A stretch of 64,000 bases of DNA from Bilabrum cf. latius (Eukaryota): the NCBI GenBank assembly GCA_965178125.1, contig OZ237735.1, positions 248,001 through 312,000 of the forward strand, written 5' to 3'. Made by a program: the position numbers and the translations under genes. This document shows positions 5,066 through 60,873 of this stretch, in pieces. Numbering within the stretch: the stretch's first letter is position 1; the number at the start of each line of letters is the position of its first letter. The notes beneath the pieces were generated by a model. It worked only from the letters and a program-made list of their open reading frames with translations. It made no database searches and was not told where the DNA came from.

Positions 5066-5154
5066 GCTGGTGGTGTCTGCATGCGCCCTGCCTCTGTGCC
5101 CGTCCCTGCGTGGCACTTCCGACGAAAGACCCCCGCAACAACACACGCGTTCAT

Positions 5155-12100: not shown

Positions 12101-12313
12101 GCGGCCCCGCTCGCGCAGTCGATCGGCAAGGCCAGGGCGAGGGCGGGCAGGTCAAGGGCGGAGGTGGAGCGGGCCATGGAGGCCGCAACAGCAGAGCGGG
12201 CCCTGCAGCAAGCGCTGGTGACGGCGCTGCAGGTGGAGGACGCGCCAGTGTCGCGGGTGCTGCCGGCGCGGCTTGCTCCCGTGGGGCTCGGAGGTACAGC
12301 GGAGGAGCACTGA
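9118..12313 (+). CDS. Leucine-rich repeat protein resembling the LRRC9 N-terminal region; exons 9118-9271 and 9528-12313; ~979 aa
   Basis: SDS22-type LRRs (LRDLLLHSNGLESLEGL, LRELWAQDNRLERVAGV), LRR cap FSDPHFGSCPV..YRQFVLASLPALTHLDG, then coiled-coil. GTGAGT..TCGCAG intron in phase, TGA stop. Confidence 0.75.
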
Positions 12314-30130: not shown

Positions 30131-30165
<35 letters not shown>

Positions 30166-36969: not shown

Positions 36970-37210
36970 TGCGTGATTGCAGAGTCCGGTGCTGGTCGTG
37001 CGCCTGGGGATACCTAGCCGCACTCCGTGACAATACGGAATCACTGCTATCGTCATCTTGATTGCTGCACCGGGCGCGACAGGGTTGCTTCCGTCGAAAA
37101 TGAGATTTGGTTTGCGGTAGCAGTACCGTGTACTTTCAAACTCGCGATCCTGCTAGTGCCATCTAGCGGTGATCAGAAAGAGCTGCTCAGACCTCGAACT
37201 CATAGAGAGA

Positions 37211-40200
37211 ATGGCAGCATCTGCTGGCATGCCTGCTGCTCTGGCTCGGCAGAGAAGCTCTGCAGCGGAGGACGATCGCGGACGGCCATTCTTGCCGTCA
37301 CAACTACATTCTGCGTTGCCGAGCGAGGCCAGAATTGGCGATTCTCTCCCAGAGCATGAAGCTTTGCAAAGCATCAAGAAGTCTGCTAAACCTATCGAAG
37401 AAATTGATGCCACCGTATTCACTGTTGATCTGAACTCATCACTGGAACCCCATGCTGTCGCCGAAGCGTAGCGGCCTTCTCGGGTAGCCCACGTTCTCGA
37501 GCTTCAACCCCCTGTGAACAAGGTCGGGAGGCGCAGTCGAGACCAGCAAGTATTAGAGGCAGTGCTGCATGAAACTGCGGTCCGTCTCACGCTCGCAGAA
37601 AAACGAGTTGCCCAGCTGAAATCTATCAAGGTAGGATAGCTTGAATCTTAGGATGCGGGATCGAGCAGCGAGTAGGCATCACCAGAAGGAAGCGCTGCGT
37701 TCGATGAGATTGATGATAATGGACCACTATTGGACGCCAACGAGTTCTCGATGGCTTCGATAGCCAGTGTGGCACTCTCTTCCATGGAGACCGCTTCGCA
37801 GGGTGGTGAGAGATTCAGCATTGCAGGCTGGACCATGGATACGCGCTACATCAGGTGCCTAGAGTGTTGGTTCAGTTCCTACTACACACCGCAGATCCCC
37901 AACTGCTCAGCCGCGTGGCCCAACGCCTCGCCTCGCAGCTCGTCCGATCCAAGATGGGGCCGTCGAGCAGCACGACGGGCGCGATGATCATCGAGTCGGT
38001 GCGTGCGGCGGCAGGGCGCAAGTCCAGCGAGTCCGGAGGCGCAGCACCGTCGAGCGAGGAAAGCCTCACTCCGGCTCTCCTCGCAGCAGAGCTTCTTGTC
38101 CTGGCCCAGGCCGTCGCGAAGGATGACCTCATCGCCGCACTCTCCTCCATTGGCGCTCTGCTGCGATGTCCGGCCGAGGTACCTTGTAAAGGGACCGAGG
38201 CGAGCTCCAGCTCCGTTCAGATGGACCTCGTCGCTGCCTTTATGCATCGGCTCGGCACCTGGGAGCCGCGGGCGAACGGACAGGGCAGGCCCACCTGGCT
38301 GCACCCATCCCTCTGGCTCAAGTCGGCCGTCGTGGCGAGCTTCGAAAACCCAAGGGTCTAGGTGCGCACCCTGGTGGGAACAGCAGAGCAGCAGACCCCT
38401 GACTCGCTCGCCACCCAGGTGGGGCGGTTCATGGCGGTGGGCGAGGGCGTGCTGTTCCTGTCGGGCGGCGAGGACGAGCCGAGCATCGTCAGGCAGGGAG
38501 CCCTGGATCTGGTGGGTGGCACCGGGGGAGACGCCCTGACGGACGCGGGCAAGAAAATGATCCAGGAGCGCCGCGAGAGGCTATGTCTCAACGAGGCCGC
38601 GCCCGCTGGTGTGGAAGCGGGCCCCGGATCTGGCTAGCAAGCGAGCAGCAGCAAGTCACCCGCCTCTCTGCTGGACGAGTACATCCAGCGGCAGGTATCT
38701 GCGGCCTTTTCAGGAGCCGCGTCGGATGGCGTTACCATTGCTAGCCTTCTAGCCAACGCACCCGGGGCGCCTCTGGTGTCAGAAGAGTCGGCGGAGAAGC
38801 TGCGCGTGGCAGGCCTGGCAGTTCTGGGCGGCTGGCTGTATGTCCGTATCGGTGCAGGCACGCAAGCGACCGCGGCAGAGCTACCCAAGCGCGACAGAGA
38901 GCTGCTTTCGCGCGGGCCGATCATCCTCAAGGTGTCTATCGGAAACGATGCCACCGTCACTCAGGTACTCCAGGTGGATGCAGCCTGCGACCCAGACTGC
39001 GGCGGGCTGTGCACCGACGGAGAAGTCCTAATCGTACCCGTGGCGAAAAGTGACCATTCACAGCTGGTGCTCGTCTCTCCAAAGGCGGCTTCGCTCAGAG
39101 ACCGCGCCGCAGAAGAGGGCGGGGCTGCCAGTGGCGCCGGGGCTGATACCGCCAGCGATGCGGATCTCCTGCAAGCAGACCCGCTCATGACCCTGCCCTT
39201 CCCTGCCCTGCGGCGGGCCGCAGCGGCTTGGGGCGTGAGACCAGCGGATGCCAGCCGCTGCGTGGCCTTGCTCAGCGACGGTGTAGAGCTGCAGGTGGTC
39301 TGCCCCCGAGCACCTACCCAGGACGAGGGGCTGCTGCGGGCCTGCCAGATCAGCAAGTCCCACCCCGTCATGCTGCAGCTGGACCTCGCCACTGGTGACT
39401 TCTGCCGATCAGGGGAACAGTCCGCCTCGTCATATGCCAGCATGGACACGGACTTTGTGTTCGGGGGCGAGGCTGCGAAGGTTGTCTACAAGAGCGATGG
39501 CTCATTATCGGTCAGCAGTGGCCGTGCTGTCTCGCTGGCTGCTGCCAGCGAAGGGCAAATGCGGCTGCAATTCCGTTTCAAGCCCAGCTCTGGCGGAGAG
39601 CCCTTGCTTTCGTTTGGTGTTTGCCGCGCGCCGCTAGAGACAAAACAGGTGGACGTCAAGAGCGGCTACTGGTGCGACTAGCACGCCGATACAGCTGCCG
39701 TGTTTGAAAAGAGAGAGAAGCACGTGCAACCTGACCCTAGGTTTACGCTGCAGCCGGGCGACGTCGTCGAAGTTGTGCTCGACATCGGTGATGGAAGCGG
39801 GCCGGCGACGCTGAGTGTTGGCTGCCAGCGCTTCCCGTTGCGCTGCCTGACTCGAAGTTTGAAGAGGGAGGACGGCACAAAGTGGCATTTTATCATTGGA
39901 AGCAGGAGCCCCACTGGCTGCAGCGTCGAGGTTCTCGGCATCCAGCGCAGGCCCCACAAACGAGAGCACGGGGTGGTGGGTCAGCCTGTCGCCCAGCGGT
40001 GCGACGCAGCTGCGTTCGATCCCGCCAGCGGGCTCGCGTACGCTGCGGATGCAGTGACCGGTGCCATCCGTGTGCTTGCCCCGCCAGACCTCGCTGCACG
40101 CGACGCTATGAACGTGGTCGGGCGTTTGCACGAGATCTTGAACCGTTAGACCACAGCGTTGAAGCAAGATGCCTCCACGCTCGTTGCATCGATGCCTGGC

Positions 40201-43200
40201 GGGGTAATGACTCGCATGCTTGCCTCTGGCATGAGAAAGGCACACCTAGCCGCTGCATCGAGCGGCCGACCGCTCGGACTGCCGCCTAGGCGGTTCGCGC
40301 TGCTAGTCCTGAGCGGATTGGTGCAACGAGCCACGTATCTGACGCAGCCCGACGCGCTCCAGCCGCTCTCGATGCCATCCTAGCTTGAGACTCGGCAGTC
40401 TGCCGGGGACTCGAACCTTGCTGCTGCCGCTGCCGCTGGAGCAGAGTTATCCGCGCGACACGCCTGGGAACCGTGCTCCGACGCTTCCGTTGTGTCGACT
40501 GGCAGTCAGCTGGAGAAGCTTGTGCTCGCAGTGGAGGAGACGGAGTAGCGCGGCGATGTCGCGGCGTTCTCAATGCTTCTCAGCCTCGCCTGCAGCAGCG
40601 CATCAGATCTAGTCCGCGTGCAGCCTTCCGCCGAGGCCATGGATGCCCTCGCCGGTTCTGCGTGGGCGAGCCGTCTGCGTGCACTGCTGATGCGGATGGT
40701 TAGCGGCCAGGGCCCGATGATGGCTTCTTTGCTGCGAGATGGGCTGCAGGAGCCCAGGAATCTGCTCAAGTCGCAGGCTTTGTGGGCTCTGCTGCGCTCA
40801 TCCACGCACGACCCCCTCGGAATCCGGCCGGAGGAGCTTGGGGTGCTCGTGGCAGCCTCACTGAAAGACGTGGCTGGAGCGCTACGGGATGGAGGAGACG
40901 GTCACGGTTTGGACGCCTCTATGGTTGCCCAGCTGGAGGAGGTGCTGCAGTCCGCAGTCGCCACTCCGGCCCTCATGCTCTCGGCCGTGCAGTCCCTTGT
41001 GCCGAAAGAGATCGACGCAGACGAGACGGGTGGCGGCACCGCGATCGATGCCAGCGGTCTCGAGGACTTGTACGCGGTTGTAGCTGCGGTGCTGCGGGCC
41101 AACTCCAGGAGCCTAGTGCTGGCCGAGGACAGCACGCCTACAGACTTGCGCATACTCCCGGCCGCTTCTGTAGTGCTGCGGTTCTTTAGCAAGTTTGCGA
41201 GCAGCGTCGTGGCTACGTGCTGCAGCTATGCCTCCCAGTCTCCGCTTCGGGCGGGTGTCGCTGCCGCTCGCGTGCTCTCACTGATGAGAGGTGGAGCTGT
41301 TACGCTCATGGACGGGGCCGAGAGTTTCCTGGTCGGCGCTAGGGCGGGCACACGGACAAAGGCAGGCACGGAGCTGCCGTTTGATGCACTACGGGGCGGT
41401 GCTGCTGTCCCCGCCATGCTGTTGCACCAGATTCTGGGACTCTGTGATGCCGCCGTCGCTGTGTATGCGGACATGCGTGCGGGGATGCTGAACCAAGGCC
41501 TGCTGCCCGTGCTAGACATGCTGCAGGAGCGCCTGTCCCGCGTGAAGCACGCGGCAGGGGCCCTGTCCTTCGATTTCCTGGATGACGCCAAGCGAGCCAT
41601 CCGCCACTCTCGCAAGATGCTGGCACGGTCTCGGGAACTTGCGCTTGTGCTGATGATCGGGACAGCCCCGATTCGGCGGAGCAGGGTCATTCCGCCAGTC
41701 CTGCACGCGCTGCAATCGCCGCTGCTCTTTGGGGGGCTGCTGCATGACGAGGAGCAAGACAAGCTTACTCACAATCTCAGGACAACCCTAGATACTCAAG
41801 TGTCTGCTGGACGATCCGAGTTGGATAGCTCCATCTCAGCAGCACTCTCAGATCCAGCTCGAACAGCTGATTCGGTCGAGCCGCTGCCGGAACAGGCTGT
41901 CGGCTTTTCATCTTAGCCATCACGATAGGCGCGCAAGATGTTGCTGGGTCTAACCCAGCCGAAGCGCAAAGGGCTGTCCTCGTCTTTCCTAAAAGCCCTC
42001 AAGCTCACGTCCGCGTGCAGCGGCGTCACCCGAGGCTGCTCCAAGGAGCAGCTGCCTGCCAAGCTTTCGCTCGCTGCTGCTGCTGTGCTGCACTGCGGCC
42101 TGGCAGACGCTGCTCTGCGGCTTGCGCAAGCCTACCGCGCCGCCAAAGATGACGCGGAAGGACAAGCTAAGGCCGCGGCAGCGTGCCCCTCAGGCTTGTC
42201 TGTGATGTTTGCCCGCGTAGCAAACGAGACGATGAGGCGGATTGGCGAACTAGGCGCCACTACATCTCCTAAAGCGTTGCCTGTGGTTATTGCGCGTGCG
42301 AGATTGTTGCTGTCAGCCGCAGTTGTGTTCCCTAGAGGCGGAATGTCGGTGTGGAGCAGGGTAAGAGCGGCATTTCTCCACTTTGCCGGGCTGTCGCCGA
42401 CACTCCGGGCTGAGATCGCCGCTCGGGCCAAGGCCCAGGCAGTTGGAACAGCGGAAGACCAGCCAGCGATGGGTGGATCGACCGCCGTTGAATCATCGCA
42501 AGGCGAAGAGACTGCGAAGAAGATCGCAGATAAATCGGGTGGCTCGCTGCACACCGCGCTGCGCGCCGTCAGCAGTCGCAGGCAGGCGCAGGCGCTATCG
42601 AAGCTAGTGCGGGCAGCCAAGATTGGGAGCTCGGCCCAGCGCATGGCTGGATTTGACCCCGTAAATGCAGTTCTGGCCTTTGGGCTGAGCTTTTCTGCGC
42701 TGAGACAGCATGCAGTGGACGGAGGCGACGGAAGCGGGCCTGTTGAGGCTTCTGGCACAGATGCGGACGTGGACGATTCTGGGGTGTAGGCGAACGGCGA
42801 ATCAGATGCGAGCGATTCGACTGAAGCCGCTGACCCTCTTGCGCAGGGAGCACGGGAGGAGATGCTTGCGAGAACCAGGGCAGCGCTCGTTCGAGCTGCA
42901 GCGTTCCGCGAGACGGTCATCTCGCTGCGTCGCTTCATCGACCGTGGTGACGTCAGCATGGTCACGTCGACCTTGAGCGCCATTATCGCAGGGCTCCGCT
43001 TCCCTCTCGCGCGATCGGTGCTGGCAGGCAGCGGAGGAGGCGTGTCTGGCCTTACAGGGGCCAGCACATCTGGTGAGGGGCCTTCCTCGGCCTCGGAGGG
43101 CATCTCCAGCGGTAGCGGTCAGGCAGGGCGGATGACCGTCGTAGAGGGCGAGGTCACGATCGACGTGAATCCGCTGGCTGGTCTCGAGGGCTGCAGCGCG

Positions 43201-46200
43201 CACGCACGCGCAGAGCTTAGAGCTGCGATTCGGGAGGTGGTTCGTTTGGCGGTGCAGGTGCTCAAGTCAGGTGTCCCAACGGCAGAAGAAGGCGGTTCTC
43301 CTGGCCGTCTGCTGCAGCCAACGCCATTGACAAGGTTCTCAAGCGTCGGAGGTGCCAGTGTCGCAACCGTCGCAGACGAAGAGGAAGAAGAGGAGGAGCG
43401 CGGGGAAAAGGCCCAGCTGGCTGCCCGCCACGCCGCACTACTAGCCATCGCTCAGGATTACAACATTGGTGATGCGCCGATCCTGCTCGACAGTGGGGTG
43501 CTGCCGGTGCTTCGCGCGCTTGCCTTCATGCGAAGTTCAACTCCCTCCGCCGAGACTCGCGTATCGCAAAGCCATAGCACTGGCCCGTCTTCAGGAGCGG
43601 GCGCAACGGAAAGCAAAGAAGCCGATGAGGATAAGGGTGAGAGCAAGGAGGAGACCGCGGCTGGCGATGCCGGAAGCGAAGTGCACAGGTGGAAGAGCGC
43701 CCGGGTAGTCGCGTAGTAGACATATGACGACGCCATCCGTCGCGAGGTGGCTCCAGGTGCCTCTGAACTCGCGGGTGTAGCGACTGCTGCGCTTCGAGTC
43801 ACTGTCGTGCGTCTGGTTGGGATGGCCCATCAACTGTCTGCTGACGCCCTCAGCTCTGCATCAGGTGCATCCGCCGAGAGCGTGGCCCGAGTGTAGCGAT
43901 TGCTGTTCGCTGAGACGACTGAGGCGCTTGCCAATGCAGCTTGGAGGGCAGGGATGACTCGCCTTGCGCTGTCTGCGTATCTACGCCCGGCCTAGTCTCC
44001 CCCTGCCGTGGCTATCCAAGGAGCAACTCCCGCCGCATCCAAGGCAGGGAGCGCGGCACCTGTTGATGACGGTAGCGAGCTTGCTCTGGTCCCGTGCATC
44101 TCGAGCACAGAAGCAGTCCCTGCTTTTCTCGACAGTGCGCCTAGGATTGTTCCTGGTGTGCCTCTGTCGAGCCGCTTCACTGTATCTGCTTGGGTGTATC
44201 CTAGCACGGCCCCTCTGCACGAGTAGGCTAGGCTTGCGGCGCTGAGGGCGAGCGACTTGGCCTCTGTTGACTCTGGCATGGGATCTGGTCCTGAGGCGCA
44301 GAGCTTCGTGCTGGGTGCTCTCGTGAGGGCAGCAAGGGACTAGCAAGCCCAGAAAGCTGCCCGCAGCCGCAAGCTCGGATCCATCATTGTTGGCAGCGGG
44401 ACAAGCGAATCGATGGCAGCCGAGGGCGGCCTTGGAGACCTATCGAAAGCAACGCTGCAGTCGTTGCGGGAGCATGAGGTGCGGAGGGCGCTGGGTGGCA
44501 CTGACGAGGCAGTGGCTATCAGGCTCCTTGCAGGCGCCCCTACCAAGCAGGACCAGCTGATGGAGATGCGAGCAAGTCTTGCCCGCTATGGTATTTCTGC
44601 TGGGATTGGTGAGTTGCAGGACATGGCTGATAGCCTCGGCATCCAGTTGCAGCCGGCGAGAGCTTCACGGGCCGTCAGCGCCGCCTTACCTGCAGGTTCG
44701 CACAGTGCTACCGCAGCAGCGGCCGGCCCGCCCTGTACTTTTGACTTTGGCAGCATTGCTGGCGGAGCTGAACCGCTAGATGGCGACCGATCAGGATTTT
44801 TGACGACGGCGCGCAGCACTGTTCGCGGCTCGCACGCAATCAGCCGGGGAGTGCTGGAGTGGGACATCGAGTTTCTGCTGGCGGGCGACTCGCAGCGCAG
44901 GCTGATCGGTGGCATTATCCAGGGCAACCCACGATCTGTGGAGTACTAGAGCAACGGCGCAGGGTGTATCCTGGTTGATTTCTATGACGGGGAAAGGGTA
45001 ATCAATGGGTCCAGTAGCGGAAACGCCGAAGCGCGATTCCTGCCAACTGAGACAAGGCGATTCAGGCTCGACATGAACGACGGAGGGTCTCCTGGCGAGC
45101 TCAGCGTGAAACGCCCAACCTCCGATGATTGGGAGATAATTTCTAACAACGTGGCGCAAGGAGACTGGTACCCTTGCGTCAACTTCAGAGAGTCGGGGTA
45201 CTCGTGCAGGATCATGAACGTTAGTGACTCGAACTTAGTCAGCGCCACCGCGCCAGCGGTCGCTGTTAACTCGCAAACTGCTACAACAGCGTTCGGCAAC
45301 CGGCTCACGGGCATCGTGGGCACTTTTGACCCTCGAAGGTCAGCCGAGATGGTCTCTGCCTTCCAGAGCACAAAGGGGAGCGGAAGCATAGACTCCACAG
45401 ACCCGAGTCTGTTTGAAGCCTCTGGAATCTGCGCGGCAGCTGCAGTTGCAACTGCTTCGGATGGCGTGCTGGAATGGACCGTCGAATGCCGGGCCTCGAG
45501 CGGAGACCACATCGTGGGGGCTATCAGGGAGGACCTCCGCAATGCTTCCATCCAGCAGCGAGGGGTTACTATCCGCGGGAGGGACGGCAGAGTGTACCGA
45601 GATGGGCGCAGGCTTCGCCTGGAGCACGCTGCCGACCTCAGGTTCCATAGCGGGGACTCAGTCACATTCCGACTCGAGCTTGGTGACGGAACCAAGGACG
45701 ACGGTGTGCTGAGCGTTCGCACGTCTGGCGACTTCGTGAAGGTGGTCAGTGACCTGGAGAAGGGTCCTTGGCGACCCATGGTCATGACGCACCTGCCCAC
45801 TTCGACTGCTACTTTCCACATACTTGACGTCTTCTACAGAAGCAGCATGTCAGTGATTCGCGTGAAGGGAGGGAGAGGTGCTGCCGCCAGGTAGCTCGTT
45901 GCAGCACCAGGGGTAGCATCAAGGCGCGGTGCGGTTGCAAGAGGCACGACGCTCACTAATGAGCTGCACCAGGCATCTAGGAAAGGCGACGGCGTGTTCA
46001 AGGCCATGAACCGAGTCACAACATCAAAGAACTTCTTTGTTCGTTCCAGGGCCGGCGTGACAGAAGGCGGCATGGAGTGGTCCATCAAGTATGTGGACAA
46101 CGACACTGCCTGCAACGTTGCATTTGGGGCCATCAATGGAGACCCAAGGAATGCTGCGTTTCGCTCGAGCGACAACAAGGCAGTGCTTATCTGCGGATCG

Positions 46201-49200: not shown

Positions 49201-52200
49201 GCAGCAGCTAGTGGTACCTCCGAATCCGTTGGACCCATCAGTGTTTTGGCGAAGGAGAACGTGTGTGCTCACACGGTGGCGCAAACCAGGTTTCTCCTTC
49301 CGGGAGCTAGGGGGGCTGTAGCTGGGTTACATGCTTTCATGGAAGGTCACTCGGTGCTTGAGTGCGTTTCTGTCGGCGACCGTCCTACCGGCGAGACGCT
49401 GTTGATTGGCGTGGTAGATAGCAACTAGCAATTCACTGCTGTTCGAATGAGCGACGGGGCGGTGCTCGCGGGACTGCAGGACGATGTGCTCTCCCCTGAC
49501 GGCGATGCAACCGTGGCTGGCTCCGTGGATCTTGGGGCACCCCAGGTGCGCGACGGAACCGCTGTCCGTCACATCCGTTTCGCTGCCTTACCCGAAGACA
49601 TTCATGCGGTTGATATGGCTTCAGGTTCCAATGTGGCTGTTGGGCTCTGGATTGATGGTGTATTTGCGGTCAAGCTGGCCTCAATTCCTGCCGGTGTCAA
49701 GTACCAGTGCACGGTAGCTTTCACTTCCATTGCCATTGACTCAGGGGAAAGAGCCGAGTACGAGGCAAGCTTGGATGAAGACGTCGTGGATCTCTATCTC
49801 TAGGGCCCACCCGTCGTGGGTAAGCCGAGGGTGATTGTCGAATCATTGTACACCGGTCAAGCAGCTGTGGATATGAAGGAATTCGAATCCTCCTCTCTCG
49901 GCAGGGATGCAAACGCACAGCCTGCGCAGCTCGGGCAGCTGTCTCGAGGTGGCGTGCTGCTGTCTAAGCGTTACGATCCAGGAATGATTCCTCGCACCGG
50001 AGCTAGCCGTCCATTGCAGGCAATGGGTCTCCGGTTGCTACCCTCTCGATAGCTTGCCTACGTTGCAGTGCCCCATGCTACCGAAGAGAATGCCTCAGCA
50101 AAGGAGGCACACCATCCAGTCGTGCTGCTGTCCCCCGGTGCGCTGCGTGGCCAGCAGTGGAATCACGTTGCAGTGGTACATGATGGTTTGCAGGCCAGTG
50201 TGTGGATCAATGGGATACAGGAGTGCTCCGCGCGCCTGCCTGTTGCGCTTCAGACCCCAGCTGTTGCACCCACATCCATGGTCGACGCGAGATTGCAGGC
50301 GATGGAGCTAGCAAAGCTGCCTATTCACGAACTCAGACAATCTCTACAGCGACTGTGCGGCAGTCTAGGCACGCCAGCTGTGACTGACCCCACAGATTCG
50401 AAGCATGTGCTTGTAGCAGCAACTTCTCACGACTCGAATAAACTGAAGAGCTTGTCGTCGCTGGGGAGAGCACCCGTCAAGATTTCGGGCGGCTCTTCAC
50501 TAAAGGCGGCGTTGCCTATCGGGTCTGATGGAATCGTGGGCCTACCGCAAGCCCTTCTGGGAGCAGGGACCGGGAAATGGTATTTCGAGGTACGGATCAC
50601 TCCTCATTCCGACAGCGGCACTGACAATGCTCCAAATCTTGCCGTCGGGCTGGTTCAATCGGGCAGCACGCTAGAGACGGCAGAAGGTCAAACCCAGCTG
50701 GGAGGCCCGGGCGTGTGGGCCGTGCAATTCGGAAACAGCAAGGCAGCCTGTCAAGCCGTTGCGGAGGGCAGTGGTAGGCAGTATGGCTCTCCGCTAGGTG
50801 GTGAGCGCATTTTATCGGTGGCAATTGATGCTGACCGGGACGGTTAGGTCTCGTTTGGGGTGAACGGCAGCGTATCACCCGGTTTTGGTGTGGCATTCGC
50901 CCGTACTCTCTCCGGAAAAACTGCCGTTTTCCCGGCAGTGCAAGCTGCAGGGTACGATGTGGAGTTCTTGATCGACCCTAAGGGAGCGCCAGGACCAGCT
51001 TCCTGCTCCTGCGAACCGCCTACTGACCATAAGCCGTTGGGTGTCCTCTTCGGGGCGCCAACTGGTACTGCCATCGACGAAAGGTCGCTCGCTGGTCTTG
51101 ATGCAGCGGACCTGAGGCGTGAGGCAGAGAGCCGATGCATCGGTTTGAGGCCTTCATTCTTCATGATTGGGGGCAGTAATGCCACTAAAATCCCGTAGAT
51201 TGCAAACAAGCCCGCATCGAGCGAGCTGGTAGTGTCAGCTGACGCTTCGAGCAAGCGCCGCAGGCTTGCTTGCTGCCACACGAGCTCAGTGCTTAGCGAG
51301 CTTCTCGGCTTGCTGCGGCCAGGCCCTTCGTCTGGTGCTGGCGCGGATGATGCGGATCCGAGCGGCGCCGTGGCTGCAGTTGTCGCTGCTAAAGAAATCG
51401 CCGAGCGGCTAGCCCCTTGTGGGCCGATGTCGGGCGCTTGGTACCTGGAGATTGATGCCTACGGCCCTGTAGAGGCCATGATGGCGTCTTTTGCCGGCTA
51501 TGCGTGGGTAAACGGGAGTACAGCGTCAAGTGTTGACGATTACGAGCAGATAGGCCGCGACAAAAAGCCGGTTGCCGTGTGCTTTGGCGACGGATCGATA
51601 GAGACCAACACAGCGGGGTTGCCTCGTCCCGTCCGACCACTCTCGGAAGAGAAGCGCGCTTAGACTACGCTGTCGATGCTGCTTGATGTGAACGCAGAAA
51701 GGGTTGTGGTATGCATGCTGGATTCCGCTGGCGCTGCAAGTGGGGAACGAGTCGTACCTCTGCCCGGACTAGCAGCTGGTGCGATCCTATCAGGAGGTGC
51801 TAGACTCGCCTTGGACGTCGCACCCGAGGTGACAGTATCTCTTCGTTTAGGCAACGGCCTGGGGAGCAGTCTTGTTGGTCAGATCCCGGCGGGGGCCCAG
51901 CCGTTTGGCGACCTGTTCCGCCCGGGACCGACGCGTGCTCACGCAGCACCTGCAGGTTCGCAGGAAGACTTCAGCGAGGCGCTTGCAGTGCTCGCGGGCC
52001 CACAGTCTGCCGCACCAAGTGTGTTCAATGATGCACCGATGGTGTTTGGACGCCCCTCCATGTTTGCGGGGAAGGCCACATCGTTCGGTACGTTCGGTAG
52101 GTCAACCACAGAGGCTGAGCGCAAGCACGAGAACCGAACACATGCTGCATGGGCAGGAGCTGATGCTCTAGTGTCCAAGTCATGTGTGATGCCCTTCCAT

Positions 52201-55200
52201 GCTGCTGCTGCGGAAGTGATCTAGTCCATGAGCTCTCCAGCTGCGCTACGAAACCTCTCCAGCACCCTTCGCATAAACGGGAGCGAACTGCGCTCAGCCG
52301 CTGACCCGCTGATCGAGTTCGACTGCGGCGTTGGATTTGGCCTACCTGCGTCCATTGCACTTCCTGAAATGCCGGAGCCGCGTCGTAATGCTGCTGCTGC
52401 TCTCAGCGTTGCAGCCGCCGCAGCTGCCGGGCCGCTCAGCAGCCTGTTCCTCGGCAGCGTGGAGGCACTGTCGTCACTCCTGGCCGTCTTCTTTGGTAGA
52501 GATCCGCAGGCGAGCTTTGCCGCTGGTAATGTCCTGGCGCGGGTGCTGCCGGATACGGAGCCTCAGGCTGCTGACGCGGCAATGCAGTACTTCTGGCACG
52601 CTGGCAGTGACGGCATCGTGCAGGCCGCGGATGCTCGCGAAGCTCCCAGGCATGCCAAGTCTGGTTTCGTTGCCGCTATGCTGGCTCGCGCAGGGCAGCC
52701 ATTTTGCTCGGCCGCTGGATTCAGACCGGCTGGAGAAATTATTAAGGACCCGTTCATTGCGCAGGGATTTGCGCAGCGGTGTGCCAATCTGATGCAGGTG
52801 CTCTTGATTTCTGTACAGAGTGCGACCGGGCCTGTGGCCAAGTTGTGGCGGGAGGCAATTCGGTCTTGCCTGGTGGATGCTCTCCGCACGGTTCCCGATG
52901 TGCTAGGTGGCATGCGCTCTGCGAGCCTGGAAGACTCTTCGAAATGGACCCGCGTGTCTGCCGTGTGCGGGGCGCTTATCGTGTGCGGTGCTGACCTCAA
53001 GCTCCTTCGAACTGGTTCGCAGGTGCTCATGTCTAGTGCCAGCCAGGCTGCTAGCAAGACCGACACAGCTCAGAGTTAGACTGGCATTCTGGTGTTGCCT
53101 CTTTCTGCGGTGGAACAAGGAGGACCTGGGTATCGAGTTGCAAAAGCAGCGGCCGACGGTGATGCCGCAGATTCCGAGGGGAGCAAGACTGCGTTGCCGA
53201 GCGCGTACATGGCCGACGCAGACGTGCCTTGTGCCAGTGTTACGCTGGCACCCACTCCACACAAGTTCATGCAGTAGCTCTTCCGCGCAGTGGCTCATGA
53301 TTCCGATGCTGATGAAAGCAGCATCGTCGATACCGTGCTGCGGGCTGCTGCAGCAGCCGCGCAGGCAAGCTGCGCTGATAAAGACAGCAAAGAGAATGAC
53401 AGCAGCTCGTCATAGTCTATTGAAATGTCAGACAAGCAGGTTCTGGACCGTTGCACTTATACATTTAAGCACACGAGTGGAGCCGATGACCGGGCCGTCG
53501 TGCATGACGTGCCTTGCCATGAAGCAGACCGGGTTCTCATCCGCATTTCCAAGAATGCCGGCACTGATGGCGCTCCATTGCCCCCCACGTCTGATGGCAT
53601 CTAGGTATTGGTCGGTGGAGTTCCCGTGGTAGGTAGGAATCCCGTCGAGAAGGCGCCGGAGGAATCAGCGGGTGGAGGGGAGGTCACAGTGAAGGTACCA
53701 TGGGCCAAGGCTGCTATGCCTGCGCGTGATGTGCTACCCGAGGTTTTGCAGCTTGTGCCCGTAGTGCGAGGACCAACGTGGCAGAGTGGCAACGCCGATG
53801 GCGGACCCGGGTCGCCTGGCTTGGCTCTGTCGATGGAAGGCACCCAGGTGCAGGTTATGTGGGAGAGGGGCGGTGAAATGACGACGCACACGTACGACTA
53901 CGGCACCGACCGTTTCGACGTGGTTCCCATGGAAATTTCCAAAGATGTCTTCGATGAGCGCCAGCGCGTGAAGGCTGCTGCCGCTGTGGCACCGGATACG
54001 TCTGTCGTGTCTCCCGATGAAGTGTACGCATTTGGGCAAAGCGCAGCAGCAGCGGGTATCAAGATCAAGATGCAGAGACCTTCTCTCGCTAGTAAAATGC
54101 CTGGTGAAGCCGACGCCCCTCACGAGTGCCACGTTATTGTGGAGAGGTATGTCTCCAGACAGGAGGCCAGAGAGATTGCCTCTGGGGGCGCTGCGGGAGC
54201 CTCCAGGCGGCTGCAATGCGTGCCCCGCGCGTTGCTCCGTTACATCTCCGCTCTAAGCCTTGATGCCCTCTTGTCTGCCCCGCTAGGACGAGGAATGAGC
54301 CTGGATGCAAGCCCGAACGCCGTACGGGAGCTGGCGAGAGCTCTTTCTCGGGCTGTCAAACACGCTTCTGGCGACACAGCAGTGTCCGTTGAAGTGTCTT
54401 CTCTCAACCAAGTGCGTCTGCAGGAGCGACTAGACCGTCTGCTGCTTGCGACTGGTGAGGGACCAGCTGTTCCTCGCACGAGCCTGCAGGGCGCGAGTGG
54501 CAAATTTGCACCCGAGACGGTAGTTGCAGCGGGCAAAGCTGTGATGAGCACGGCAGCAGTGGGTGAGAAACGAAGCAGCGAACCCCCGTAGCCGCCCGGT
54601 CACTCTGCAGCCACAGCTGGGCAGTACGCTGAAGCTGGCACGGTTTCGCAAGCTACCTACGGTGGCATCAAGTCTGTCAACCTGTCGAACGTATTCGAGA
54701 TATCGGCTCTCGGGTCGTGGCTCGTGCATGAGCAGGAAATTGCAACTGTAGAAGGGACTGGTGACGTCGATGTAGCAGCCTTCGACCCCACCGAGCATCC
54801 GTCTCTGGAGGTATTTGCGTCGGAAGCAGCCGCAGCAGCGAGCATGAGTGGCGTTATTACAGACAAAGAGCCAGCCACGTCGATTCCAGATTCCTAGGAG
54901 CCGAGCATCGCTGATGGGATTGAGGGCTGCTCGGGACTGCGCTGCCTCGAGGCACTCGAGGAAACCCTGCGAGTCGCAGAAGGCCGAGTCTACAGCTCCG
55001 CGCTGGCCAACCTGCTGCAGAGCCCGTTGGCTGCAGCACTCACTGAGATAGATGCGGATCTCTCGGCGGGCGAAGCCGCTAAGAAGAAGAAGGCGATCCA
55101 GCTGCTGCGGTCCACGACTGCTTTCCTTGAGGATTCGCTCAGTGCTTCCACGTCAGCGAGTTCACATGCTGACGAAGGCAGCGCTGCCACCTCCAAGGCC

Positions 55201-58200
55201 CACTCGATGCAGAAGCTTAACGAATCAATCAAGAACAGGCTGGAGGATGTGGCACGCTCAGCAGAGGACATTGGTGGCACTATCGCTATGTATGCAGCTG
55301 CATTTGCGCTCGAGAAGAAGATGGAGTCTGTCACAAGCGGCCGATAGGTCGATGAGCAAGCAGCCGACACCCTGCTCTCAGCTATGTGCATGACAGCCTC
55401 TAACCTATGCGAGGATGTAGCTCGCGGCAATGGCATGCATTGGGAGACAGCGAAAGGTATGGTTGAGGTCCTCCTGAGTCCTCGCAGCTTCAAGCTTGCA
55501 ACTGCAGCATTTAATGGGGCTACAGCAGCCAGCGGGGGCGATAGCATTGCGCTTCAGCTTGGGTCGCTGCTGCGTGTTGCAGCTGTGGCATTTGAGCCTG
55601 GGGCGTCTGCACCGTCTTGCCTTCGAGGTGAATCGCTACAGAAGGTAATGTCTTGCATCGAGCCGCTGTCTGGACGAGTTGCAAGCACAATCAAGGCAGC
55701 CTCAGGCGGTATGCTGTCTGGCAATTCCTCGAAACGTCCCTCTTTCGACGCGCAAGGCGGTGTTCTGAAGATGCTGCCCCCGGCAGCGCAGCATCTTGGG
55801 GAACAGGCGGCTCAGCTCGCCCTCGGTGTAGAGCTGTTAGGCCCCTACTTGATGGACAGCAGCAGCGAAGGCCCGGCCAGCGGGGCGGGCGCGGACGATC
55901 CCACGGGTTCTACAGTGACAGAAGCAGAGTTTGCCCACAACTTTGTTCGCAAAGCCATGTATCCGCTCATGATGCTACCTGGATTCCAGAGTCTCGTCGC
56001 GTTTGAGCGGGCGGCGATGGATCTGGCAGCGGGGCGAGCTCCTCATGCCATGATGCTGAACATGCTGCCTGGCTTTTTGCTGAGCAAGTTGTCGCGTGTG
56101 GTAGATCTGACCCCAAGGGATGGGGTGAAGGAGATAGTTATCCCCGGATCTTCCCAGGTGCGCGTGCTGATGTCGCCCGATACCTCCGTCGGCAGCGGTT
56201 ACCTGGAGGTCTCGAACTCTGCCGGTGTCACTGCCCGGGTCGATGGTACCGCGGCTCTACCCGGCGGGGAAATGAGGCTGCCAAGCGGGTTCAGCCACTT
56301 GGCAGGCGGCACCACCGCATTTGCAGTGGCCCCTCTCGCAGCTGACGACGCGACCCTGTCGCTCACTGCAGGCAACGGTAGGCTCTCCAGCTAGTTTGTG
56401 TAGGAGGCACTGCTAAAGAAAACCCCGCAGAGGCATGGCAGCAGTCGTGATGACGGCCTTTCTGGAGTCACGCCGTCGTCAATCGGAAAGCTTGACCCAG
56501 CAGACGCCCGTCTGGTCAACATGGAACCGAGGCAGTCCGTGGGGTTGGACCAGAAAGCAATGAAAGTGCACGAAGCATCTGGTACAACGAGTGTGGCTGT
56601 GCCTCGCCTCGCCGTGAGTGCTGGCAAGTGGTACTTCGAGGCAGACCATAGTACTCTCGATTTATTTGACGCCAAAACAATCGCCACGGTTGGGATGGCG
56701 TCGGCCTCGTTCAAGCCAAACGGTCCAAGCAACCAGACTGCTGGCAAGTGCAAAGGCAGTTGCGCTCTGGACGTATCAGAAGGAGTCGTTTTGTGCGACG
56801 GGGCAGTCACTCGTTGCTCTGCCAAGCAGGGACTTGGCAGTGCTTCGACCGTGGTGCAGGTGGCCGTCGATGCCGATGCGAACACTTTGACGTTTGGTTG
56901 GAACGGTAATCTCAAGGCCCGAATGTCTGAGCCAAGTGCTTCAGCCAAGATTGCTGGGACAGTGTACCCGGTTGTGTCTCTGGGGTCGAGTGAAGTGGTG
57001 AGCCTGCGACTCGGCGGGAACGCCAGCACAGCTCTCTAGCACGAACCGCCTGAGGGGTACCAGCCCCTGGGTGCTCTCTTGCGTCGCGTACGAGTAGCTG
57101 CCACTAAAGCTCCACGACTTGCTCCCATCCCATATCCGGGATAGGACTGTGTAGTGGTCGAAGACAACGGCCGGGTTGTTCGAACTCAAGGACGGCAGTC
57201 AATTCGGACAGCATGGGTGCCCGAGCTCACGGTATCTTCTGGCAAGTGGGTGTATGAAGTGAAAGTAAGCTCCAGCGGCTTTGCGCAACTGGGTTGGGTT
57301 GGAGCTGGATGCTCTAGGATTAATCTATCCACGCGCGGTGTCGGAGATGACATCAACTCTACTGCATGGGACGGATCTCAGCGTCGCGTTTTCCAGGGTG
57401 CGCAGGGCTTTTCTGCTGGCGGTCGCTGGAGTTCCGGGGATGTCGTGCAGTGTTACATCGATTGTGACACCCGCCAGGCCTTCTGGCGCTTGAACGGCTC
57501 CACCGATAGGATCGAGTGGCCGGGCACGCCCGTGCCGGGCGAAGTGCCCCTTGCGCCCGGGGTGTCCATGGATCACTCGCAGCAGCTTCTCGTGAGGCTC
57601 GGCGGCCCCAGGTCTGACCCCTTGTCGATCGAGCCCATGGCCGGATACCGTCCCATAGGAGAGTCTGTGCTGGCAACGGGTGCAGGCTCGCCTCGATCGA
57701 TGCCGAGGATTTCACCTGCAGCGTATCCCGGGCAGGGTGAGATTGCGATCGAGAACGGCGGGCGGCTCGTCACGGTGACTGGCGGAGCCGACGTGCAGAC
57801 TGCCTGGGTGCCCGAATTGCAGGTGTCCACCGGAAAGTGGATGTATGAAGTGCAGCTCTCCCGTGGCAGGTATGCGCAGCTGGGTTGGATTAAGCAAGGC
57901 TTGCAGGGCATCAATTCCACCAGTCATGGAGTAGGGGACGTTACGGAGTCCACAGCGTTGGACGGGTCCCAGAACTATATCTTCCAAGGGGGGCAGGAGC
58001 ATCGTATTCGAAATTCGTGGAGTTCCGGGGATGTCGTGCAGTGTTACATCGATTGCGATACTCGGCAGGCCTTCTGGCGCTTGAACAGCTCCACCGATAG
58101 GATCGAGTGGCCGGGCACACCCGTGCCGGGGTCTGGCCCGCTGGCGCCTGGAGTGTCCCTTGACGGTTCAGAGCAGCTGACAGTGAGGCTCGGCGGCCCC

Positions 58201-60873
58201 AGGTCTGACCCCTTGTCGATCGAGCCCATGGCCGGATACCGTCCCATCGGAGAGTCTGTGGAGTCAGAATCAGCCGAAACAGCTGACGGCCCGTCATTCG
58301 GTGCGAGCTCTGGGACTGACCCTGACCAGCTTTTCGAGATGCTGGCAGAGTCAGCTGAGCGAGTGGATCCTGCCGAGCTCGTTGCGGACGCAGAGCGCAA
58401 CACCCCCGGCGGGGGAGGGACGGGCGTAGAGGGCAAGCAGAACCTACTTTCGGATGATCTAGGAAGCCGTAAGTATCTTGATATGAGCTTCAACGGGGCG
58501 GTGTGGATGAAGATGGGCTTCGCGGATGGCTAGTCGCGCGCCGTGACCAAGGTCTTGATTCGATCTGCGAACGACTGCGAGGAAAGAGACCCGAAGCACG
58601 TTAAGATATTCGGGCGGAATGTGCAGTCGGGCAGTGAGTGGAAGCTGCTGGCGGAGGACTAGGACGTGTTCTTCTCGGCGAGGCACAGCATTTACACCAT
58701 CGACATCCCAGAGGACAAGGTGTGCGAGTGCACTGAAGTAAAGCTGCAGGTGCTTGCCACGCGTAGAGAGTGCGGCATGATGCAGGTGAACATGATTGGT
58801 ATGCACGCTGCGAGTGCAGGCAGCTACGATGCGTACAAGAAAGCCGTGGCAGGCGACTCAAGCGATGCAGGCGCCCCTTTTGAAGGGTACGGACTCCCTG
58901 TGGCAGGAAACCGCGTCACGATTCGCTGGGTGCAGGAAGATGGAGACGACAGCGGCGGCGATTCCCGAAAGCTGCGTGTGGTCGTCGTTCCCATGCTTGA
59001 GCCGGATGCGATCAAAGCGCACATCAACGGGCGATTCCAGGGCGAGCTTGAGCAGCAGGCAACGGATCGTAGGCAGGCAACGTCCCGCATTCAGAGGGAG
59101 GGCATCCGATCGGACCTTATGCACGTCTTTGAAGGCGGCGGGACGGGAGGCAGCGCTGGTACTCGTAGCGCTTCTGAGCACGCGTTGGCACGGACTGCAT
59201 ACAGAGAGCTCTTTGAGTTCCTGTAGACCGGGTTTGCAGGCACGGAGGCTGACGAGGAGCTGGTGGACTTGCTGGACGACGCGAGCCGGCGGAAGGGCTG
59301 GAACGCGGGCAAACTGTTTTAGTGCTCGTGGCAGGAGGTGCGGGATGCGTCGCAGCTGAAAGAATCACAGTTCCCCGCGCTGGCTGCTGTGCTGAATGAG
59401 GGCAATGCGGCCGAGGTGCCTGGATAGGAAGGTGGCAGGCAGCGAGTCGAAGCTCGGTTGATGCTGGTGCAGCAAGCAAACCAGAGCGTCAGGAAAGCAT
59501 TACCGTGGATCGACACCACCCGCGCTGGCGCAGACCAGGGCTCGGCAGCTTCGCGACTTGCGAGCATCGCTCACTTGATCGCGCTGGTCCTGAAGAAGCC
59601 GCTATGGGACCGTTGCTTGGAGAAGACCCAGAGCAACTCGAGGCAGTTCAACTTCACCATCGATCGCATTGCTCCGACCACCATGCTGGGCGGGGGCAGG
59701 CAGGACTCGGAAGGCAGGCACACAGTGTTCTCTCAGGCATTCCGGGCCATGTTCCGCAAGAAACCGAGCGAGCTGCGCGGCGGCCGCGGCCACCGCATGT
59801 TCGAGGTTAGCTTCCGGAACGAGGGCGCTATCGACGCGGGTGGCCCGTACCGAGAGGCCTACACGCTGCTCGCTGAGGACCTGATGAGCGACCGAATGAC
59901 TCTCATGTTGGATGCATCCAGGGCGCGACAAGCGGCGGGGACAGCGCAAGCATCCGGCGGAGCTGCTAGCGATGCGTCCGGGCCGCCGCCGCTGTTGAGG
60001 CGGCAGTCGACGGGGGCAGAAGCCGAGCAGTCGAACCCGCGCGTGGCCAACCCCGGGGCGAGCTCCGAGATCGAGGGCCGGCTGTTCAGCTTCCTGGGTC
60101 GGTACATGGGCATGGTGATCCGCCAGCAGATCTACGTGCCCATGCAGTGCGCGTCGATTTTCTGGAAGGGTCTGACGGGGGCGCGCTGCGACGAGCTCGA
60201 CCTGCAGCGGAGCGACTACGAGCAGTGGAGGCGCATCGATCAGGTACGCAGGGACGCGGGGCGACTCCCCGAGGAGGACTTCCGCAGGGAGCACCCGGAT
60301 TTGTGCTTTGAGGTACCCGCATCCGACGGGGCCATGGTGCAGCTGGTTCCCAAGGGAAGGGAGAGGCAGGTCACGAGGGGCAACGCGCACCGCTGGGCGG
60401 ATCTCGCGCTTCAGTACCGCCTGGAGCAGGAGCAGAAGGAGGCCACGGCGCATGTGCGCGGCGGGCTGGCCACCATCGTGCCGGTGCACCTGCTGCCTCT
60501 CTTCAGCTGGAGGCAGGCCAGGCGACTAGTGTGCGGGGAGGACCACATCGACATCGCTGCGCTCCGACAGAACACGAGGTACGAAGGGTACGACAGGGAC
60601 AGCCCCGTGATCCAGCGTTTCTGGTCGGCGATGGAGGCCATGCCTGATTCCCAGCGGAGGGCCTTTATCCGCTTTGCGTGGGGTAGATCGACGCTGCCGT
60701 CGGTGGAGGGCAGGTGGTCCGAACCCTTCAAGATCACGAGGCGGTCGGGTGGGGGGCTCCCGCACGCGCACACGTGTTTCTTCCAGATCGAGCTGCCGCA
60801 GTACGAGACCGACGAGGAGATGCGGTCAAAGCTAGCCTGGGCGTGCGCCGAGACGTCCATGCTGGAGGGATGA
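37211..60873 (+). CDS. Giant HECT E3 ubiquitin ligase with multiple SPRY, CUB-like and MIB/HERC2 domains; exons 37211-37805 and 37895-60873; ~7,857 aa, ~49 in-frame TAG
   Basis: About 32 listed ORFs from 37855 to 59458 share frame +1 and all but the last end in TAG. Gaps contain only TAG. HECT motifs F.NEGAIDAGGPYRE, FIRFAWGRSTLP, LPHAHTCFFQIELPQY. MIB/HERC2 VVRGPTWQSGNADGG. CUB-like ESPHPY..FRSDGS..EWG. SPRY GKWYFEV. Ends TGA TGA. An 89-nt GTGAG..CGCAG intron (37806-37894) joins the frames. Confidence 0.9.
57130..58260 (+). repeat. Tandem duplication of a SPRY-domain coding unit, period 591 bp
   Basis: WSSGDVVQCYIDCDTRQAFWRLN.STDRIEWPGTPVPG and VRLGGPRSDPLSIEPMAGYRPIGESV occur twice, with near-identical DNA in those blocks. 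Confidence 0.9.

What the first reader, a model, noticed from the sequence alone, without database searches (positions are those of the whole stretch)
37895..60873. Non-standard nuclear genetic code: TAG is a sense codon
Seen: one reading frame stays open for ~23 kb if TAG is ignored. It has about 45 TAGs (hand count), no TAA, no TGA and no frameshift, and ends in TGA TGA after an intact HECT domain. Seven other genes on both strands show the same pattern (3259-4878, 7366-8904, 12460-22998, 24492-31538, 31769-33671, 33814-35649, 62154-63089), about 90 TAGs in total. Conserved motifs lie on both sides of the TAGs, e.g. the HAD phosphatase DxD and GDGxND motifs. Established: stop-to-sense reassignment in nuclear genomes is rare and best known from ciliates, diplomonads, some ulvophyte algae and a few other protists. 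Inference: this lineage has reassigned UAG, and standard-code annotation would break up or miss these genes. I cannot tell from the window whether this has been described for this organism.
Basis: partly seen in the sequence, partly recalled or inferred. Interest (0 to 1): 0.97.

Follow-up and report, generated by a model that had tools for sequence, protein, structure and literature searches.

The report
TAG codes for glutamine here
This stretch of a GC-rich eukaryote's nuclear DNA uses the usual stop codon TAG inside its genes as an ordinary amino-acid codon, most likely glutamine, so standard gene finders would break nearly every large gene into pieces.

Summary
One frame, 37855-60873(+), runs 7672 codons with 45 TAG, no TAA and no TGA. 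It ends GGA TGA TGA after a HECT domain. Across 14 coding stretches (17,649 codons) there are 89 in-frame TAG and no in-frame TAA or TGA. All 13 ORF ends checked are TGA.

The DNA is eukaryotic. A phosphomannomutase gene has two GT-AG introns. The TAGs are not assembly errors: contigs of four runs from four studies show no differing letter.

TAG is probably glutamine. In nine well-aligned comparisons with close relatives, the partner of TAG is Gln/CAG six times, Ser/TCG twice, Glu once and Leu never. TAA is not reassigned: 18 in-frame TAA would be expected if it were Gln and none is seen. A relative also ends its phosphomannomutase gene in TAA.

This is the UAG=Gln, UAA/UGA=stop code (NCBI table 15 type), known from Iotanema and a few ciliates. 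It is shared here by at least two relatives. The lineage is unresolved; the nearest named homologues are stramenopile and rhizarian. No tRNA(CUA), eRF1 or RNA evidence could be obtained. I found no publication matching it.

The parts
37855..60873 (+). Main exon of a giant HECT E3 ubiquitin-ligase gene (7672 codons; CUB, MIB_HERC2-like, 4 SPRY and HECT domains) with 45 in-frame TAG; ends TGA TGA
   Evidence: The Pfam CUB match at residues 3337-3430 spans the TAG at residue 3423.
37058..37809 (+). Coding-like stretch in another frame just upstream (6 TAG). Either 5' exon(s) of the HECT gene or a separate small gene; the junction is not resolved.
   Evidence: Coding score; sequence read. Two of its TAGs lie in a 21-nt GT...AG stretch that could be a mini-intron.
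3259..4878 (+). HAD-type phosphatase gene (Pfam Put_Phosphatase, E 1e-33, two matched stretches) with 2 in-frame TAG between the N- and C-terminal motifs; ends TGA
12460..22998 (-). 3512-codon gene of no known family with 19 in-frame TAG. Several TAGs lie in or beside poly-Gln runs. Ends TGA.
24492..31538 (-). 2348-codon gene with a weak alpha/beta-hydrolase match and 6 in-frame TAG. The frame stays open upstream to 32057. Ends TGA.
33814..35649 (-). 611-codon gene with 8 in-frame TAG, all in the N-terminal half. THUMP-domain-like by Atlas features only (score 0.88, a lead). Ends TGA.
62154..63089 (+). 311-codon ORF with 3 in-frame TAG, no family match; ends TGA
35809..36969 (+). Control gene: phosphomannomutase, 3 exons (35809-35907, 36176-36287, 36404-36969) with GT-AG introns. 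No TAG. TGA lies at the conserved C-terminus. Shows the DNA is eukaryotic nuclear.
   Evidence: 258 aa, 63-67% identical end to end with three PMMs
9527..12313 (+). Axonemal-type LRR protein gene. Its CAG at 12116-12118, in a conserved stretch, is TAG in the orthologue of relative R2 (locus L001).
7366..8659 (-).
31903..32847 (+). One TAG sits inside a repeat unit, where sister units have E, K or D.

Best explanation
The window is nuclear DNA of a GC-rich (60-70%), flagellated eukaryote with few introns. In it UAG has been reassigned from stop to sense, most likely glutamine, while UGA (and, by inference, UAA) still terminate. This is the table-15-type code. Shown here: TAG is read through in frame in all large genes; it is interchangeable with CAG between close relatives; TAA is not used as sense; and the trait is shared by two relatives. 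Inferred from what is established for such codes (Panek et al. 2017, PMC5304391): a tRNA-Gln with anticodon CUA, which pairs with UAG but not UAA and probably derives from a tRNA-Gln(CUG) copy, together with an eRF1 that has lost affinity for UAG.
For: (1) Open frames. 89 in-frame TAG against 0 TAA and 0 TGA in 17,649 codons of 14 coding stretches. The giant frame has P below 1e-28 of being open by chance.
(2) TAGs lie inside coding sequence. A Pfam CUB match spans one TAG. HAD motifs flank two. ORFs of relative R1 run without gaps across four window TAG sites.
(3) Not an assembly artefact. Contigs of runs X1 and X5 cover all of 40874-60873, and those of X7 and X9 cover parts, all with 0 differing letters. 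The four runs come from four studies.
(4) Amino acid. Window TAG against R1 residue (84-95% identical fragments): Q at residues 2014, 7156 and 7191; S at 6395; E at 6183. R1 ORF ends against window codon: CAG, CAG, TCG. R2 TAG against window CAG lies in a conserved stretch of the LRR gene. The total is Q 6, S 2, E 1, L 0 of 9. Three more window TAGs coincide with R1 ORF ends. At about 10% protein divergence, 3 non-synonymous changes in 11 sites (TAG=Gln) has P 0.09. Six changes (TAG=Ser) has P 3e-4 and seven (TAG=Glu) has P 2e-5.
(5) Context. Q is 2.3-fold enriched next to TAG (15 seen, 6.5 expected, P 0.003), and adjacent TAG-TAG pairs give 6 neighbour counts against 1 expected. An internal SPRY repeat aligns the TAG at residue 6430 with Q (translation).
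(6) Codon bias. The per-gene share TAG/(TAG+CAG) follows TTG/(TTG+CTG), the analogous T/C first-position pair (Spearman 0.59, P 0.03, 14 stretches).
(7) TAA is not sense. 18.2 in-frame TAA are expected from the CAA:CAG ratio and 0 are seen (P 1e-8). R2's PMM gene ends TTG TAA GCC TAA at the conserved C-terminus.
(8) Stops. 13 of 13 ORF ends are TGA. In PMM, HECT and MsrA the TGA lies at the family's usual C-terminus.
Against: Three of the nine close-relative comparisons are not Gln (2 Ser, 1 Glu). One internal CUB-like paralogue aligns a TAG with Glu. The more distant relative R2 shows E and S at two window TAG sites in a context of 56% identity.

TAG is under-used in the most conserved parts. 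Within the HECT gene it makes up 3 of 50 Gln-type codons inside Pfam domains against 42 of 250 outside (Fisher P 0.05). There are none in the PMM, MsrA, ECH or LRR-domain stretches. That could mean inefficient or ambiguous decoding, or it could only reflect their higher GC.

No tRNA(CUA), eRF1, transcript or peptide was seen. The window holds only tRNA-Lys(CUU) and tRNA-Tyr(GUA). No TAA-terminated gene is confirmed in the window itself. R1's stop codons are inferred from ORF ends, not read from DNA.
Confidence: 0.8

Rival explanations
1. TAG is a sense codon but stands for another amino acid. Serine (as reported for the green alga Scotinosphaera) and glutamate (as in some ciliates) are the candidates; leucine (as in the rhizarian exLh) was also considered.
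For: S pairs with TAG in 2 of 9 close-relative comparisons and E in 1 of 9. One paralogue and one R2 comparison also give E. TCG and GAG are each one base from TAG.
Against: Q/CAG is the partner in 6 of 9 and L in 0 of 9. Given about 10% protein divergence, TAG=Ser needs 6 and TAG=Glu 7 non-synonymous changes in 11 sites (P 3e-4 and 2e-5). Q, not S or E, is enriched beside TAG.
Confidence: 0.1
2. The code is ambiguous: TAG is read as an amino acid inside genes but also ends translation in some contexts, as in Condylostoma, karyorelicts or Blastocrithidia (where the dual codon is UAA).
For: TAG is rarer in the most conserved domains and genes. Two TAGs lie within the last 60 codons of the 12460-22998 gene, so its true end is uncertain.
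Against: 0 of 13 ORF ends need TAG. PMM, HECT and MsrA end in TGA at the expected C-terminus. TAGs are spread along the whole 23-kb frame, up to 481 codons before its end.
Confidence: 0.07
3. The DNA carries TAG but the mRNA does not: U-to-C editing, or removal of TAG-bearing mini-introns, restores a standard message.
For: No RNA data could be obtained. Two TAGs at about 37631-37651 lie in a 21-nt GT...AG stretch.
Against: It would take 89 sites, each edited or excised without ever touching the frame. R1 ORFs run ungapped across four TAG sites with a sense codon in place. Nuclear U-to-C editing on this scale is unknown to me (from my own knowledge).
Confidence: 0.02
4. Artefact: consensus errors, pseudogenes, or prokaryotic or phage DNA with code 15.
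For: Code 15 is common in gut phages (listing).
Against: The sequence is identical in contigs of four runs from four studies. There is no TGA or TAA in 17,649 codons. The DNA has GT-AG introns, HECT/SPRY/CUB/SHIPPO architectures and about 65% GC.
Confidence: 0.01

Closest known systems
Iotanema spirale (Fornicata): UAG=Gln with UAA as the main stop (Panek et al. 2017, PMC5304391; abstract and passages read)
   Same: Only UAG is reassigned, to glutamine; UAA and UGA are kept as stops; non-ciliate nuclear genome.
   Different: Iotanema is an anaerobic metamonad known from a transcriptome. This organism is GC-rich and has an enoyl-CoA hydratase-family gene (Pfam ECH). Its nearest named homologues are stramenopile and rhizarian, and its main stop is TGA. 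Kinship was not tested directly.
Ciliates with UAG=Gln only: Protocruzia tuzeti and two phyllopharyngean lineages; NCBI table 15 (McGowan et al. 2024, PMC11687900; Discussion passages read)
   Same: Same codon table.
   Different: Nothing ciliate-like is seen here: a 64-kb gene-dense stretch at 60-70% GC with a 23-kb exon. No ciliate appears among the named hits I looked up.
UAR=Gln codes (table 6): hexamitid diplomonads, ulvophycean green algae, Streblomastix, Amoeboaphelidium (as listed in PMC11687900)
   Same: Stop-to-glutamine change, presumably through a mutated tRNA-Gln.
   Different: TAA is not a sense codon here (0 seen, 18 expected) and it ends a gene in relative R2.
Scotinosphaera (UAG=Ser, UAA stop) and rhizarian exLh (UAG=Leu, UAA stop) (PMC11687900 and PMC5304391)
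   Same: UAG is uncoupled from UAA in a non-ciliate nuclear genome. exLh was likewise first noticed inside another organism's data.
   Different: Partner residues here are mainly Gln (6 of 9), with Ser 2 and Leu 0.

Membership tests
Nuclear stop-to-sense reassignment of UAG | In-frame TAG inside genes whose conserved parts continue on both sides, with no other stop in frame | tested here: met
   89 TAG, 0 TAA and 0 TGA in 17,649 codons. A CUB match spans a TAG. HAD motifs flank two TAGs. R1 ORFs cross four TAG sites.
Nuclear stop-to-sense reassignment of UAG | TAG not used as terminator at conserved C-termini | tested here: met
   13 of 13 ORF ends are TGA. PMM, HECT and MsrA end at the family's usual C-terminus. 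This is a small sample from one window.
Nuclear stop-to-sense reassignment of UAG | A cognate tRNA with anticodon CUA and an eRF1 altered in UAG recognition | not testable with these tools
   No genome is held. The window has only tRNA-Lys(CUU), tRNA-Tyr(GUA) and a truncated Lys copy.
Nuclear stop-to-sense reassignment of UAG | UAG present in mature mRNA and translated (RNA-seq, peptides) | not testable with these tools
   No listed run holding the stretch is on record as RNA.
Table-15-type code (UAG=Gln; UAA, UGA stop) | TAG aligns with Gln/CAG in homologues | tested here: met
   Q 6, S 2, E 1, L 0 of 9 well-aligned close-relative pairs. The sample is small.
Table-15-type code (UAG=Gln; UAA, UGA stop) | UAA kept as stop | tested here: met
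   0 in-frame TAA against 18.2 expected. Relative R2's PMM ends in TAA. No confirmed TAA-terminated gene in the window itself.
Table-6-type code (UAA and UAG=Gln) | TAA also used in frame | tested here: not met
   0 TAA in 17,649 codons, P 1e-8.
UAG=Leu code (rhizarian exLh type) | TAG aligns with Leu | tested here: not met
   0 of 9.
UAG=Ser code (Scotinosphaera type) | TAG aligns with Ser | tested here: inconclusive
   2 of 9. Disfavoured by the divergence argument (P 3e-4) but not excluded.
Ambiguous stop/sense codes | The same codon also terminates genes | tested here: not met
   0 of 13 ORF ends. The sample is too small to exclude rare use.

The most novel reading that the evidence does not exclude
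This is an independent, so far undescribed UAG-to-glutamine reassignment, with UAA and UGA kept as stops, in a GC-rich, flagellated lineage that is neither ciliate nor metamonad and may be stramenopile or another SAR group. It is shared by at least three related genomes, one of them in environmental metagenomes. It would be a clade-level code change in a high-GC genome, where about 14% of CAG/TAG-type Gln codons are TAG.
Probability: 0.45. Interest if true: 0.8.

Novelty: new member of a known kind. Interest (0 to 1): 0.7.

Why it matters
Non-standard nuclear codes outside ciliates are known from only a handful of lineages. Cases where UAG changes but UAA does not are rarer still (PMC5304391, PMC11687900).

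A further independent case would bear on how such codes arise. This one sits in a 60-70% GC genome, with heavy TAG use and related taxa to compare. It speaks to tRNA-Gln(CUG) to (CUA) mutation, eRF1 change, and whether GC pressure explains why only UAG was captured.

There is also a practical consequence. Standard-code annotation cuts this organism's genes apart: the 7672-codon HECT gene falls into pieces of at most 471 aa. The protein databases do hold its relatives only as fragments of 62-217 aa.

Tried and rejected
- Whole genome: none is held. So there was no tRNA(CUA) or eRF1 search, no 18S and no Codetta-type run.
- RNA evidence: no RNA holder is listed. Runs X5, X6 and X9 are only guessed to be RNA. 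X9's short contigs cover some TAG sites without change, but this cannot be counted as transcript evidence.
The second scan, with P0003, gave L001, the only close relative among 80 loci.
- Genome contigs and viral contigs: no close relative.
- Self-BLAST of the window's proteins for paralogue pairs at TAG sites: only low-complexity matches, discarded.
- Distant HECT homologues (21-31% identical to the window over alignment A1; P0152 33% in A2): TAG sites fall in unconserved columns (D, G, R, gaps), so they are uninformative.
- Two of L001's three TAGs lie in poorly aligned stretches (partners A and G) and were left out of the tally.
- The last word-based protein search (501-aa query with 7 TAG, 'shorter') was crowded by chance candidates and gave one hit.
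- Taxonomy. A PMM FastTree puts the window with unnamed sequences, next to a clade that holds a protein whose 90% cluster also contains an Aplanochytrium sequence, and a record labelled Batrachochytrium. The best named HECT hits are Phaeothamnion, Chrysoparadoxa, Saprolegnia and Chlorarachnion at 28-32%. Atlas searches gave only family leads. None of this places the organism.
- Earlier scan notes: nothing.
- Literature: six searches found no paper describing UAG=Gln in a GC-rich non-ciliate, non-fornicate eukaryote. The library lacks most subscription journals, and supplements were not read.
- The splice junction between 37058-37809 and the main frame could not be fixed by eye.


Full report
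**1. The observation**

With TAG read through, the window holds one ORF at 37855-60873(+) of 7672 codons with 45 TAG. It has no TAA and no TGA before the terminal TGA. Stop to stop, the frame is open from 37810. Under the standard code the largest piece of it is 471 aa.

The other five frames of the same DNA contain 11-43 TAA and 47-179 TGA each, and 44-74 TAG. At even the lowest of these off-frame rates, the chance of 7672 codons free of TAA and TGA is below 1e-28.

The product carries Pfam CUB, Laminin_G_3 (weak), MIB_HERC2 (weak), four SPRY stretches and a C-terminal HECT domain (E 4e-54) that reaches to five residues before the stop. The gene ends GGA TGA TGA. The CUB match (residues 3337-3430) spans the TAG at residue 3423.

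**2. The other genes**

All have no TAA and end in TGA:
- 3259-4878: Put_Phosphatase/HAD, E 1e-33, 2 TAG lying between the DxD and GDGGND motifs.
- 12460-22998: 19 TAG.
- 24492-31538: 6 TAG.
- 33814-35649: 8 TAG.
- 62154-63089: 3 TAG.

The remaining two are real genes but have frame changes, so their TAG counts are uncertain. 7366-8904 is a minus-strand GHL15 gene whose Pfam profile is split over two frames. 31769-33671 holds a SHIPPO-repeat gene.

A codon-usage score trained on the giant frame, followed by Pfam, found more genes:
- enoyl-CoA hydratase at 1479-2855(-);
- an axonemal-type LRR protein at 9527-12313(+);
- MsrA at 61092-61532(-);
- a ricin-B lectin ORF at 63311-64000(-);
- a phosphomannomutase (PMM) gene.

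The 14 coding stretches together hold 17,649 codons: 89 TAG, 528 CAG, 108 CAA, 0 TAA and 0 TGA. All 13 ORF ends examined are TGA.

**3. What kind of DNA this is**

The PMM gene has three exons (35809-35907, 36176-36287, 36404-36969) joined across GTAAGT...CAG and GTGAGG...CAG introns. The spliced product is 258 aa with no internal stop. It aligns end to end at 63-67% identity with three PMMs and ends in TGA at their C-terminus.

Together with the HECT/SPRY/CUB and SHIPPO architectures and 60-70% GC, this marks eukaryotic nuclear DNA. It is not prokaryotic or phage DNA.

**4. Not an assembly artefact**

Nine public runs from four studies hold the stretch. I laid four of them, one per study, on 40874-60873. 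Contigs of X1 (depth about 15) and X5 (about 28) cover all of it. Contigs of X7 and X9 cover parts. No differing letter is reported for any of them; the only difference is a one-base gap in a low-depth X9 contig. Contigs can hide rare variants, and one of the runs may be the source of the window. None is on record as RNA.

**5. Relatives**

A PMM search found a 99% match (P0002), a 90% match (P0003), and then nothing above 70%.

*R2.* P0003's organism is represented by a 4248-bp metagenome contig, L001 (60% GC). It carries the end of PMM and, on the other strand, the orthologue of the window's LRR gene. That orthologue is 80% identical over the LRR domain and 61% over the best BLASTP segment (390 aa). 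It has 1038 codons with 3 in-frame TAG and no TAA, and ends in TGA.

*R1.* A full-library search with residues 6180-7379 of the HECT protein returned short ORF fragments that are 84-95% identical to the window (P0145, P0146, P0147, P0150, P0151). All come from Logan contigs, in two near-identical variants. The same search returned 56-69% identical fragments (P0148, P0160) from a JGI/ENA contig, which I take to belong to R2. One more R1 fragment, P0297, came from the last word-based search.

That the relatives appear only as fragments of 62-217 aa is what a shared TAG-sense code would produce under standard-code gene calling.

**6. Which amino acid**

Where an R1 fragment crosses a window TAG, R1 has:
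- Q at residue 2014;
- Q at 7156;
- Q at 7191;
- S at 6395;
- E at 6183. This last rests on an ungapped extension of two residues.

Where an R1 fragment ends but the window runs on, the window codon is CAG (after P0146), CAG (after P0150) and TCG (after P0151 and P0295). Each is one base from TAG and two or more from TGA or TAA. Three R1 fragments end exactly at window TAGs (residues 2047, 6430, 7124).

In the LRR gene, L001's TAG in a conserved stretch (11 of 13 flanking residues identical) stands opposite the window's CAG at 12116-12118.

The tally is Q 6, S 2, E 1, L 0 of 9. Eleven sites were compared, with protein divergence of about 10%. Reading TAG as Gln requires 3 amino-acid changes (P 0.09), as Ser 6 (P 3e-4) and as Glu 7 (P 2e-5).

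Supporting points:
- Q is enriched 2.3-fold beside TAG (15 against 6.5, P 0.003), and TAG-TAG neighbours are enriched (6 against 1).
- TAGs sit at the ends of CAG runs in the 12460-22998 gene.
- The tandem SPRY units align the TAG at residue 6430 with Q.
- Per gene, TAG/(TAG+CAG) follows TTG/(TTG+CTG) (Spearman 0.59, P 0.03, 14 stretches). This last point fits a synonymous T/C pair, but any GC-driven bias would also produce it.

Points against:
- the two Ser and one Glu pairs;
- a CUB-like paralogue that puts E opposite the TAG at residue 3423;
- R2's E and S at residues 7124 and 7156, in a context of 56% identity.

I put TAG being a sense codon at about 0.98, and Gln given that it is sense at about 0.85-0.9.

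**7. TAA and TGA**

If TAA shared TAG's meaning, the CAA:CAG ratio predicts 18.2 in-frame TAA. None is seen (P 1e-8). In R2 the PMM gene ends TTG TAA GCC TAA, one residue past the window's C-terminus.

So UAA remains a stop in the clade. TGA is the stop seen at all 13 ORF ends of the window. No TAA-terminated gene is confirmed in the window itself. One 86-codon TAA-ended ORF at 23571-23831 scores as coding but has no other support.

**8. Unevenness**

Within the HECT gene, TAG makes up 3 of 50 Gln-type codons inside Pfam-domain spans against 42 of 250 outside (Fisher P 0.05). There is none in the last 481 codons, nor in the PMM exon 3, MsrA, ECH and LRR stretches.

Those stretches are also the GC3-richest (0.82-0.87), so mutation bias may suffice as an explanation. 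Selection against a less efficient codon, or some ambiguity in decoding, cannot be excluded.

**9. Mechanism (inferred, not shown)**

Panek et al. 2017 argue as follows for codes that read UAG but keep UAA (PMC5304391; abstract and passages of the Background and the section on molecular mechanisms read). The decoding tRNA must carry anticodon CUA, and it is most simply derived from tRNA-Gln(CUG). eRF1 is expected to be altered where it contacts the third-position G.

Neither could be looked for here. No genome is held, and the window's tRNAs are Lys(CUU) and Tyr(GUA).

**10. Who is it, and is it known**

Named neighbours are distant:
- PMM is 62-70% identical to homologues from many eukaryote groups. 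In a FastTree the window sits among unnamed sequences. It lies next to a clade that includes a protein whose 90% cluster also holds an Aplanochytrium sequence, and a record labelled Batrachochytrium.
- The best named HECT relatives are Phaeothamnion and Chrysoparadoxa (32%), Saprolegnia (32%) and Chlorarachnion (28%).

SHIPPO and axonemal LRR genes indicate a flagellate. This hints at SAR, perhaps stramenopiles, but it is not a placement.

Cases listed in the Discussion of McGowan et al. 2024 (PMC11687900, passages read):
- UAG-only reassignments: Iotanema (Gln), the rhizarian exLh (Leu), Scotinosphaera (Ser), and Protocruzia and phyllopharyngean ciliates (Gln or Leu);
- the ciliate PL0344, where UAA=Lys and UAG=Glu.

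Six full-text searches turned up no report that fits a GC-rich non-ciliate, non-fornicate organism. The library is incomplete, supplements were closed, and without a name for the organism absence from print cannot be claimed.

**11. Verdict**

The code is of a known kind (table-15 type). The lineage is probably a new bearer of it, and the trait is shared by at least two relatives.

Noticed in passing
window 639-701 and 2985-3057: A truncated copy of tRNA-Lys(CUU) (Rfam tRNA, 34.5 bits) repeats the 5' two-thirds of the intact gene 2.3 kb downstream, then diverges.
   Followed up: partly
window 24024-24096: A tRNA-Tyr(GUA) gene of 73 nt with no intron. From my own knowledge, nuclear tRNA-Tyr genes of most eukaryotes carry one.
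   Followed up: no
window 57427-57669 and 58018-58260: Two SPRY units of the HECT gene are a 591-bp-spaced direct repeat (243 nt, 88% identical). The Logan contigs of runs X1 and X5 break into small pieces exactly across 57456-58218.
   Followed up: partly
window 58218-60873: In run X5 the contig over the last 2.6 kb of the HECT gene has depth 95, against 28 for the rest of the gene. In X1 the depth is flat. Unexplained.
   Followed up: no
window 21655-21982: A perfect 27-nt tandem repeat (12.1 copies) encodes a nine-residue unit repeated in the 12460-22998 protein. Further tandem arrays lie in the intergenic stretch 4979-5562.
   Followed up: no
window 37631-37651: A 21-nt stretch that starts GT, ends AG, is in frame and holds two TAGs. 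It could be a mini-intron or could be translated.
   Followed up: no
protein P0149 (4179 aa, Logan contig of 14.8 kb): The best long homologue of the HECT protein (34% identical) is an uninterrupted standard-code ORF. A more distant relative therefore seems to lack in-frame TAGs in this gene, which makes it a possible outgroup for dating the code change.
   Followed up: no
window 23571-23831: An 86-codon ORF with a high coding score per codon that ends in TAA. It is the only TAA-ended candidate in the window and has no family match.
   Followed up: no
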